From Escherichia coli (GTDB lineage Bacteria; Pseudomonadota; Gammaproteobacteria; Enterobacterales; Enterobacteriaceae), in assembly GCF_029227855.1 (NCBI RefSeq), contig NZ_CP074356.1: a stretch of DNA of 64,000 bases; one strand, given 5' to 3'. This document shows positions 16,649 through 17,227 of this stretch, in pieces; positions within the stretch are counted from its first letter, which is position 1, and each line of letters begins with the position of its first letter. Position numbers: made by a program.

Positions 16649-17227
16649 TTACCAGGATGATTCTCAAAACAGCACAAATTATCAAAGATGATTTTTTCGG
16701 GAGCGATCCCGTTGACGCCAGAGCCACCAAGGGGTGACGCGCGTCACATTTCTATTCATAAGTAGCGTTAATCATTCATATCACGAATATTTTCTTGTCA
16801 GCGAAAAAAATTGCGGATAAGGTGATGAACACATCAGATTTCCTGGTGTAACGAATTTTTTAAGTGCTTCTTGCTTAAGCAAGTTTCATCCCGACCCCCT
16901 CAGGGTCGGGATTTTTTTATTGTGCATTCAACGATTCACTTCAGAGACGCTGAAGTCATGAATATCCAGTTCGAAGGCATCCGCCAATTCACGCCATGTA
17001 TGATATTCACGTCCATCGACGCTAACGTGTTCAGAATCGTTCTGGCTGCGATGAACTTCGCTTTCGCTAATTTCATTGATCGCCGCCAGCAGGGCATCGA
17101 CATCGACGCTGACCTCACGTTTTGCGGTATCGCTGTACTCTTTTGCGGTTTTCATCATCTTTCCTCGCAACCGTTACTCTGTTGTTGCCGCCAGTCGTTA
17201 AGTCCGCCTGGCATCTCTTAAGTATAG

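What the first reader, a model, noticed from the sequence alone, without database searches (positions are those of the whole stretch)
16828..17155. Convergent DsrA and yodD with overlapping 3' ends
The DsrA terminator hairpin ends 14 nt from the yodD stop codon on the opposite strand. The hairpin has a U-tract only in the DsrA direction, so yodD transcripts probably read into and through DsrA antisense sequence. That would create potential antisense interference between a stress-induced small protein mRNA and DsrA.
Basis: inference. Interest (0 to 1): 0.2.

Follow-up and report, generated by a model that had tools for sequence, protein, structure and literature searches.

The report
DsrA and yodD share one terminator
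In E. coli the small-RNA gene dsrA and the stress gene yodD face each other and end their transcripts at the same hairpin, so the two RNAs overlap by about 30 bases; this is an ordinary arrangement that has already been mapped, and no regulatory effect has been shown.

Summary
The window is E. coli chromosome. dsrA is at 16828..16914 (+) (Rfam, 102.5 bits). yodD is at 16928..17155 (-). Only 13 nt separate them. The shared GC-rich hairpin (16888..16912) has a U-tract only in the DsrA direction. This junction is conserved in 79 of 80 Enterobacteriaceae species.

The yodD mRNA has one called 3' end, at K-12 2025257, which is window 16884. That is 44 nt past the stop codon and 4 nt past the hairpin. 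The transcript therefore enters dsrA antisense and overlaps DsrA by 29-31 nt. The stable RNA covers only DsrA's terminator stem-loop, not the whole sRNA.

Two mechanisms could make this end, and the data do not decide between them: RNA polymerase may stop at the hairpin (pausing or head-on collisions), or it may read through and exonucleases trim the RNA back. DsrA 3' ends outnumber yodD 3' ends about 80- to 300-fold, so titration of DsrA by yodD mRNA is unlikely.

This is an already-recorded instance of a convergent gene pair with overlapping 3' ends. Interest is low.

The parts
16828..16914 (+). dsrA, the 87-nt DsrA small RNA. K-12 RefSeq annotates it through the U-tract, which corresponds to window 16918.
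   Evidence: Rfam RF00014 at 102.5 bits, full-length model match. It folds into three stem-loops with z-score -5.26.
16888..16912 (.). Shared GC-rich hairpin. On the + strand it is DsrA stem-loop 3, an intrinsic terminator. On the - strand it is the stem-loop at the 3' end of yodD mRNA.
   Evidence: 10 pairs with 7 G-C on the + strand. An 11-pair stem in the antisense reading, within a 67-nt fold of -21 kcal/mol. The stem is kept in 80 species through changes on both arms, for example CCCGACC/GGUCGGG versus CCCGGUC/GACCGGG.
16912..16918 (+). U7 tract of the DsrA terminator, which reads as an A-tract before the hairpin in the yodD direction. The Term-seq DsrA 3' end maps to 16912.
   Evidence: Sequence. 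Tail score T=3.19. DsrA 3' end at K-12 2025229, which is window 16912.
16928..17155 (-). yodD coding sequence (75 aa plus stop codon), a sigma-S-dependent stress-induced small protein.
   Evidence: ORF. RefSeq annotation on identical DNA. Pfam DUF2525 at 115 bits. RpoS dependence from bioRxiv 10.1101/2023.11.09.566509 and PMC4447067.
16884..16927 (-). yodD 3' UTR, 44 nt, ending at the experimentally mapped 3' end at 16884 (K-12 2025257).
   Evidence: Adams et al. 2021 Supplementary file 1. The K-12 61-mer matches the window exactly and its position 51 is window 16884.
16884..16914 (.). Region where the stable DsrA and yodD RNAs are complementary: 31 nt to the annotated DsrA end, 29 nt to the mapped end at 16912.
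   Evidence: Cofolding predicts a 31-bp duplex 25.9 kcal/mol more stable than the two separately folded RNAs.
16631..16883 (-). The path any yodD read-through would take: antisense of DsrA stem-loops 1-2 and of the dsrA promoter, then the yedP leader. This is hypothetical. No 3' end is called in the part checked (to about window 16742).
   Evidence: Sequence. C/G ratio 1.00, so no rut-like C>G stretch. No minus-strand terminator is predicted. No 3' end at K-12 20252xx or 20253xx other than 2025257.
15815..16630 (-). yedP, the next gene on yodD's strand, which a read-through transcript would enter.
   Evidence: Annotation. It lies on the same strand downstream of dsrA in 55 of 79 related loci.
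17218..17228 (-). TCTATACTTAA, a sigma-S-type extended -10 element upstream of yodD. This is an inferred promoter; if it is used, the mRNA would be about 330 nt.
   Evidence: Read directly from the sequence. The match to the sigma-S -10 consensus is from my own knowledge and was not tested here. It agrees with yodD being strongly RpoS-dependent.

Best explanation
dsrA and yodD are a convergent pair in the conserved core genome that share one 3'-end element. Read on the + strand, the hairpin plus U7 tract is a standard intrinsic terminator and releases DsrA. Read on the minus strand, the same hairpin has no U-tract but still defines the stable 3' end of yodD mRNA, 4 nt past the stem. This gives a 44-nt 3' UTR, and the two mature RNAs are complementary over 29-31 nt, which is DsrA stem-loop 3 only. 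Shown: both 3' ends, the overlap, the asymmetry, and the conservation. Inferred: how the yodD end is made. My best reading is that the hairpin pauses polymerase and that heavy opposing dsrA transcription blocks it there, as in the model for overlapping bidirectional terminators. Any polymerase that escapes would produce tails that 3'-to-5' exonucleases trim back to the hairpin. I expect little regulatory consequence for DsrA, because DsrA is in large excess and both complementary segments are locked in stable hairpins.
For: DsrA and yodD identities and coordinates. Term-seq gives the yodD 3' end at K-12 2025257 (window 16884) and the DsrA 3' end at 2025229 (window 16912), each flagged as antisense to the other gene. 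The yodD end appears only in stationary-phase LB and in M63, as expected for an RpoS-dependent gene. No further 3' end is called at 20252xx or 20253xx. The hairpin folds strongly in both orientations. The U-tract exists in one direction only. The same table shows the same architecture at other convergent pairs: can/hpt have 3' ends at 141973(-) and 142003(+), a 31-nt overlap around one hairpin, and the can end has no U-tract. The neighbouring dsrB/rcsA pair does the same. The preprint 10.1101/2022.10.23.513370 describes bidirectional terminators between convergent E. coli genes as lacking resemblance to intrinsic terminators, being independent of Rho, and using the hairpin as a pause site where head-on polymerases collide; termination is more efficient at highly expressed pairs. 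DsrA 3'-end counts are very high, 0.6-0.9 million. The junction is conserved in 79 of 80 species.
Against: No data here show where polymerase actually stops, because Term-seq reports steady-state ends. The yodD-direction signal scores as a non-terminator (d=-29.9). At the neighbouring dsrB hairpin, which also lacks a U-tract, a Rho-dependent termination region lies about 660 nt further on. So read-through of such hairpins does occur in this same locus. Dar & Sorek 2018 attribute ends of exactly this kind to trimming after downstream termination. Term-seq read counts are not a calibrated measure of abundance. All expression data come from K-12 at 37 C, not from the low temperature at which DsrA is most active.
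Confidence: 0.6

Rival explanations
1. Read-through with trimming, which is the transcriptional core of the first reader's idea. Most polymerases transcribing yodD pass the U-less hairpin and cross dsrA and its promoter antisense. They terminate further on, by Rho or within or after yedP. PNPase and RNase II then trim the RNA back to the hairpin, leaving the end at 16884. Transcription through the dsrA promoter, or collisions with dsrA polymerases, would lower DsrA synthesis when yodD is induced.
For: There is no U-tract in the yodD direction (T=0.63, d=-29.9), and this holds in about 80 species. Dar & Sorek 2018 report that precise ends immediately after stable U-less stem-loops are typical of transcripts terminated downstream and then trimmed. 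The neighbouring dsrB end is of the same type and has a Rho termination region about 660 nt downstream, antisense to rcsA. yedP lies on the same strand only 253 nt further on.
Against: No 3' end or Rho region is recorded in the dsrA antisense stretch. The Rho data are from exponential LB, however, where yodD is silent. The read-through stretch has C/G = 1.00, which makes it a poor Rho loading site. Very dense opposing dsrA transcription should block polymerases coming from yodD. No paper in the searched library reports a yodD-derived antisense to DsrA.
Confidence: 0.3
2. RNA-level interaction in the opposite direction. Abundant DsrA pairs with the 29-31-nt complementary 3' end of yodD mRNA. 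That would open its protective hairpin or create an RNase III substrate, so that DsrA controls yodD mRNA stability as a cis-antisense regulator.
For: Perfect complementarity over 31 nt, with a duplex predicted to be 25.9 kcal/mol more stable than the separate folds. Both RNAs are detected in the same samples, with DsrA in 79- to 316-fold excess. The arrangement is conserved across the family.
Against: Both complementary segments are buried in 10-11-bp GC-rich hairpins with loops of 3-5 nt, so pairing should be slow. The conservation is explained well enough by the need for a DsrA terminator and compact gene spacing. No interaction data could be retrieved, because the RIL-seq tables are not held.
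Confidence: 0.08
3. Compact gene packing with no interaction at all. The overlap is a passive result of two genes sharing one hairpin, and neither transcription nor RNA stability of either gene is affected by the other.
For: Many convergent pairs in the same Term-seq table show the same geometry. No published effect was found.
Against: This largely coincides with the best explanation. It differs only in denying a role for opposing transcription in stopping yodD polymerases. The non-terminator score in the yodD direction makes it difficult to explain a single sharp end without either collisions or trimming.
Confidence: 0.25

Closest known systems
Overlapping bidirectional terminators between convergent E. 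coli genes (Ju, Li & Liu 2019 Nat Microbiol, as described in bioRxiv 10.1101/2022.10.23.513370)
   Same: A convergent pair with one hairpin between the genes. Each transcript ends a few nt past the hairpin, so the 3' ends overlap by about 30 nt. The yodD side does not look like an intrinsic terminator.
   Different: One partner is a small RNA with a fully standard intrinsic terminator, so the element is asymmetric. Rho independence and dependence on collisions have not been tested for this pair. I could not check whether the pair is in the Ju et al. list, because that paper is not held.
Stem-loop-protected 3' ends of Rho-terminated transcripts (Dar & Sorek 2018, PMC6061677)
   Same: A precise steady-state 3' end immediately after a stable stem-loop with no U-rich tail.
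   Different: Dar & Sorek report no A-rich tract upstream of such stem-loops, whereas here there is an A7 tract, which is DsrA's U-tract on the other strand. They also report mild C-over-G enrichment downstream, and here C/G is 1.00. No Rho region is recorded here.
GadY / gadX cis-antisense pair in E. coli (from my own knowledge: Opdyke et al. 2004)
   Same: An Hfq-binding small RNA encoded convergent to a stress-gene mRNA and overlapping its 3' UTR. Both belong to the RpoS and acid-stress network.
   Different: GadY pairing with the gadX 3' UTR has been shown to direct processing and raise mRNA levels. For DsrA and yodD no effect has been shown, and the overlap is limited to the terminator hairpin.
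The neighbouring dsrB / rcsA pair, and can / hpt, in the same Term-seq table
   Same: Shared intergenic hairpin and a 3' end at about hairpin + 4 nt without a U-tract.
   Different: For dsrB, a Rho termination region further downstream documents read-through. There is no such record for yodD.

Membership tests
DsrA sRNA (Rfam RF00014) | Covariance-model score at or above the curated gathering score, over the full model | tested here: met
   102.5 bits against 60, model positions 1-85 of 85, at 16828..16914 (+).
DsrA sRNA (Rfam RF00014) | Three stem-loops, the last being a terminator followed by a U-tract | tested here: met
   The minimum-free-energy fold shows three stem-loops, z=-5.26. Terminator scan hit with TTTTTTATTG.
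DsrA sRNA (Rfam RF00014) | Conserved genomic position between yodD and yedP | tested here: met
   K-12 annotation. Salmonella table in PMC2515195. 79 of 80 loci have dsrA after yodD, and 55 of 79 have yedP next.
YodD / DUF2525 (PF10733) | Pfam score above the curated cut-off, and identity with the annotated YodD | tested here: met
   115 bits against a cut-off of 27. DNA 100% identical to genomes annotated yodD at these coordinates.
Intrinsic (Rho-independent) terminator, yodD direction | GC-rich stem-loop | tested here: met
   11-pair stem; the 67-nt fold containing it is -21 kcal/mol.
Intrinsic (Rho-independent) terminator, yodD direction | U-rich tract of about 7-8 nt directly after the stem | tested here: not met
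   The tail is AUGAAACUUGCUUAA, T=0.63, d-score -29.9. No minus-strand hit in the scan. At most 2 U in 8 nt across about 80 species.
Overlapping bidirectional terminator (Ju et al. 2019) | Convergent genes whose mapped 3' ends both lie beyond a shared hairpin, so that the transcripts overlap | tested here: met
   3' ends at K-12 2025229(-) and 2025257(+), a 29-nt overlap centred on the hairpin.
Overlapping bidirectional terminator (Ju et al. 2019) | Termination independent of Rho | tested here: inconclusive
   No Rho region is listed near the site in the bicyclomycin data of Adams et al. Those data are from exponential LB, where no yodD 3' end is called.
Overlapping bidirectional terminator (Ju et al. 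2019) | The 3' end depends on opposing transcription (polymerase collisions) | not testable with these tools
   This needs a dsrA promoter mutant or in vitro convergent transcription.
Trimmed Rho-dependent 3' end (Dar & Sorek 2018) | Precise end just after a stable stem-loop without U-rich sequence | tested here: met
Trimmed Rho-dependent 3' end (Dar & Sorek 2018) | C-over-G enrichment downstream, and read-through sensitive to bicyclomycin or to loss of exonucleases | tested here: inconclusive
   C/G = 1.00 over the 253 nt downstream, and the largest (C-G)/78 value is 0.09, so composition is not met. No expression data exist under yodD-inducing conditions, and the Dar & Sorek supplementary tables are not held.
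cis-antisense RNA regulation | Extended perfect complementarity between two RNAs present in the same cells | tested here: met
   29-31 nt of complementarity. Both ends are detected in the LB OD 2.0 and M63 samples. The duplex is favoured by 25.9 kcal/mol.
cis-antisense RNA regulation | One RNA changes the level, processing or translation of the other | not testable with these tools
   No report was found in the literature searched. RIL-seq tables are not held.

The most novel reading that the evidence does not exclude
A negative feedback loop built into the gene arrangement. DsrA raises RpoS translation. RpoS drives the strongly RpoS-dependent yodD promoter. yodD transcription runs into dsrA, either through polymerase collisions or read-through across the dsrA promoter, or through the 31-nt RNA duplex. 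That would lower DsrA output and so limit RpoS induction. The family-wide conservation of the tight convergent junction would then reflect selection on this loop, and not only on gene packing.
Probability: 0.06. Interest if true: 0.5.

Novelty: already known. Interest (0 to 1): 0.12.

Why it matters
As it stands, the result matters little. It documents that a well-studied small RNA's terminator also serves as the 3'-end element of the neighbouring stress gene. The case would matter only if yodD transcription measurably changed DsrA output. Because yodD is RpoS-dependent and DsrA activates RpoS, that would add a feedback arm encoded in gene position to the RpoS network. It would also be a test case for polymerase-collision termination at a small-RNA gene.

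Tried and rejected
1. I looked for a minus-strand intrinsic terminator downstream of yodD. None is predicted. The U7 run on the minus strand at 16811..16805 has no preceding hairpin and lies in the dsrA promoter spacer, so I rejected it as a terminator.
2. I looked for independent 3'-end or interaction data. The supplementary tables of Dar & Sorek 2018, the nanopore E. coli paper and RIL-seq 2016 are not held. The TERMITe supplements contain neither yodD nor dsrA. Ju et al. 2019 is not held under its DOI or its PMC id.
3. I looked for indirect evidence of yodD-to-yedP read-through in the form of RpoS-dependent yedP expression. No paper in the library links yedP with RpoS except as a flanking-gene label.
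4. I searched for any report of an endogenous antisense to DsrA. The only hit concerns an engineered construct in a C. elegans feeding study.
5. I considered the 33-aa ORF at 16781..16882 (-), antisense to DsrA, as a possible coding continuation. It is a mechanical ORF with no supporting evidence, and I did not pursue it.
6. I considered a rut-like Rho loading site downstream of the hairpin. Composition gives no support, with C/G = 1.00.

Full report
**What is there.**
The window is Escherichia coli chromosome. The 721 bases around the finding are 100% identical to several complete genomes, and 5341 of 5426 complete E. coli genomes hold a match to this stretch. The annotated gene order is dgcQ, yedP (-), yodD (-), dsrB (+), rcsA (-). 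That RefSeq record lists no RNA gene here. Rfam places DsrA (RF00014) at 16828..16914 on the + strand at 102.5 bits, against a gathering score of 60 and over the full model. K-12 RefSeq annotates dsrA at the corresponding position. The minus-strand ORF from ATG 17155 to stop codon 16928-16930 encodes the 75-aa YodD, which matches Pfam DUF2525 at 115 bits. The finding's coordinates, 16828..17155, therefore run from the DsrA 5' end to the yodD start codon.

- Thirteen bases (16915..16927) separate the DsrA end from the yodD stop codon. With the K-12 RefSeq annotation of dsrA, which includes the whole U-tract, the gap is 9 nt.
- The hairpin at 16888..16912 is followed by TTTTTTATTG on the + strand. 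On the minus strand the same hairpin is preceded by A7 and followed by AUGAAACUUGCUUAA.
- The consensus scan finds a terminator only on the + strand.
- A d'Aubenton-Carafa score gives d=+12.3 in the DsrA direction and d=-29.9 in the yodD direction.
- The hairpin itself folds at least as well in the antisense reading, with an 11-pair stem.

**Conservation.**
A scan of one genome per species found 80 yodD loci, spanning Escherichia, Salmonella, Citrobacter, Enterobacter, Klebsiella, Raoultella, Kosakonia, Leclercia, Cedecea, Buttiauxella and others.
- nhmmer finds dsrA convergent immediately after yodD in 79 of them. The exception ends at a contig boundary.
- Rfam confirms DsrA above its gathering score in 11 of the 14 most distant loci tested.
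- The distance from stop codon to hairpin is 4-28 nt, median 12.5.
- The stem is maintained through changes on both arms.
- An A-tract of 5-8 always precedes the hairpin in the yodD direction.
- At most 2 of the 8 following bases are U, apart from three loci where my script picked the wrong hairpin.
- dsrB lies divergent upstream in 77 of 79 loci. yedP lies downstream on the yodD strand in 55 of 79.

The junction is therefore old and stable. The one-sided U-tract is a family-wide property.

Adams et al. 2021 (eLife, PMC7815308) mapped 3' ends in MG1655 by Term-seq. Their Supplementary file 1 contains three relevant results:
- A DsrA 3' end at 2025229(-) in all three conditions, with 603,756, 887,088 and 777,985 reads.
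- A yodD 'primary, antisense (dsrA)' 3' end at 2025257(+), with 11,227 reads in LB OD 2.0 and 2,463 reads in M63. It is not called in LB OD 0.4.
- No other 3' end at 20252xx or 20253xx.

The 61-base sequences printed for both ends match the window exactly. The 3'-end base is position 51 of each; I checked this against SgrS, whose position 51 is the last U of its U8 tract. The conversion is window = 2042141 - K-12 coordinate, and it reproduces the yodD, dsrA and rcsA boundaries. The yodD mRNA therefore ends at window 16884. That is 44 nt after the stop codon and 4 nt after the base of the hairpin. It overlaps DsrA by 31 nt, or by 29 nt measured to the mapped DsrA end at 16912.

The growth-phase pattern fits yodD being strongly RpoS-dependent (bioRxiv 10.1101/2023.11.09.566509; sigma-S ChIP-seq, PMC4447067).

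**What this means for the interpretation.**
That condition is not met, so the 3' ends really do overlap. The stable transcript does not run 'through' DsrA, however. It covers only stem-loop 3. The parts of DsrA that pair with rpoS and hns lie in stem-loops 1 and 2 (established knowledge) and have no stable antisense partner in these data.

Cofolding predicts that a 31-bp duplex would be 25.9 kcal/mol more stable than the two separate folds. Both segments sit in GC-rich hairpins with loops of 3-5 nt, so pairing should be slow; this is inference.

DsrA 3' ends outnumber yodD 3' ends 79-fold in LB OD 2.0 and 316-fold in M63. Term-seq counts are not calibrated abundances, but the gap is large enough that titration of DsrA by yodD mRNA is unlikely. 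If any RNA-level effect exists, it would more plausibly run from DsrA to yodD.

**How the yodD end is made.**
Two published models fit.
- *Collision model.* The overlapping bidirectional terminators of Ju et al. 2019 are summarised in the follow-up preprint 10.1101/2022.10.23.513370. [quoted passage not shown] Their hairpin pauses polymerase so that head-on collisions occur at a fixed site, and efficiency rises with expression. dsrA is very heavily transcribed, which fits this model.
- *Trimming model.* Dar & Sorek 2018 (PMC6061677) report that precise ends just after U-less stem-loops arise when transcription terminates further downstream and PNPase or RNase II trims back to the stem-loop.

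The neighbouring pair supports the trimming model in this same locus. The dsrB 3' end at 2024594 (window 17547) is hairpin + 4 nt with no U-tract. A Rho-dependent termination region lies about 660 nt further on at 2023932, antisense to rcsA.

For yodD nothing comparable is listed. The bicyclomycin data come from exponential LB, where no yodD 3' end is called, so this absence says little. The 253 nt between the hairpin and yedP have C/G = 1.00, which makes them a poor Rho loading site.

I favour pausing plus collision, with some trimming of transcripts that escape. The data do not decide between the models, so transcriptional read-through, and with it interference at the dsrA promoter, remains possible at a confidence of roughly 0.3.

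**Comparison with what is known.**
The gene arrangement is in the K-12 annotation. It appears as flanking-gene information in sRNA tables for E. coli and Salmonella. The two overlapping 3' ends are in a published table, each flagged as antisense to the other gene. The same table shows the same geometry at other pairs: can/hpt have ends at 141973(-) and 142003(+), a 31-nt overlap, and the can side has no U-tract.

No paper in the searchable library discusses a functional link between yodD transcription and DsrA. The feature is an already-recorded example of a known class. The only open element is the untested regulatory idea.

**Verdict.**
Novelty is 'already known'. Interest is 0.12.

The most novel reading still open is an RpoS, yodD, DsrA negative feedback loop encoded by the convergent arrangement. 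I give it about 6% probability.

Noticed in passing
window 17507..17549 (hairpin 17518..17543; dsrB 3' end at 17547; Rho region near 18209): The neighbouring convergent pair dsrB (+) / rcsA (-) also shares one intergenic hairpin. The Term-seq dsrB 3' end (K-12 2024594) is hairpin + 4 nt with no U-tract, 3 nt before the rcsA stop codon. Adams et al. list a Rho termination region at K-12 2023932(-), so dsrB transcription appears to run antisense through the whole of rcsA.
   Followed up: partly
window 16912: The dominant Term-seq 3' end of DsrA in all three conditions maps to the first U after the stem. That gives an 85-nt species with essentially no U tail, which is unexpected for an Hfq-dependent sRNA whose annotation runs to UUU or U7.
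   Followed up: no
window 17500..17535: This strain differs from K-12 at two positions in the dsrB 3' region. One is just before the hairpin (TAATCTTATTC in K-12, taatctaattc here). The other is in the hairpin loop (GGGAAACC in K-12, gggaagcc here). This is why the K-12 61-mer did not match the window exactly. The stem is unchanged.
   Followed up: partly
loci L044, L051, L054, L062, L065, L066, L074, L077 (Kosakonia and relatives); also Enterobacter and Leclercia loci: In several genera the yodD stop codon lies only 4-10 nt from the hairpin. A terminating ribosome would then cover the 5' arm of the stem, which could delay hairpin formation in the yodD direction and favour read-through there (the ribosome-footprint argument is inference).
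   Followed up: no
locus L019 (CACSKA010000001.1): A record titled 'Chryseobacterium sp. 18061' carries a typical Enterobacteriaceae yodD-dsrA junction, with YodD 84% identical to the E. coli protein. It is nearly identical to the Citrobacter sp. 18056 locus L021 from the same project. The assembly is probably mislabelled or contaminated.
   Followed up: no
window 8403..8492 (-), 40062..40103 (-), 49988..50287 (+): Other RNA genes in the window found by Rfam: rseX (96.7 bits), ES036/CssrF (42.1 bits, just above its gathering score of 37.6), and a cluster of three tRNAs.
   Followed up: no
window 16734..16747: A short palindrome, GTGACGCGCGTCAC, lies about 80 nt upstream of the DsrA start. The scan flags it as terminator-like on the + strand although no + strand gene lies upstream of it. 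It sits in the dsrA upstream region that any yodD read-through would cross.
   Followed up: no
window 17218..17228 (-): TCTATACTTAA upstream of yodD looks like a near-consensus sigma-S extended -10 element. That fits the report that yodD is the 'most purely RpoS dependent' of four tested promoters. The same report states that an RpoS-dependent fusion formerly attributed to dsrB was in fact a yodD fusion.
   Followed up: no
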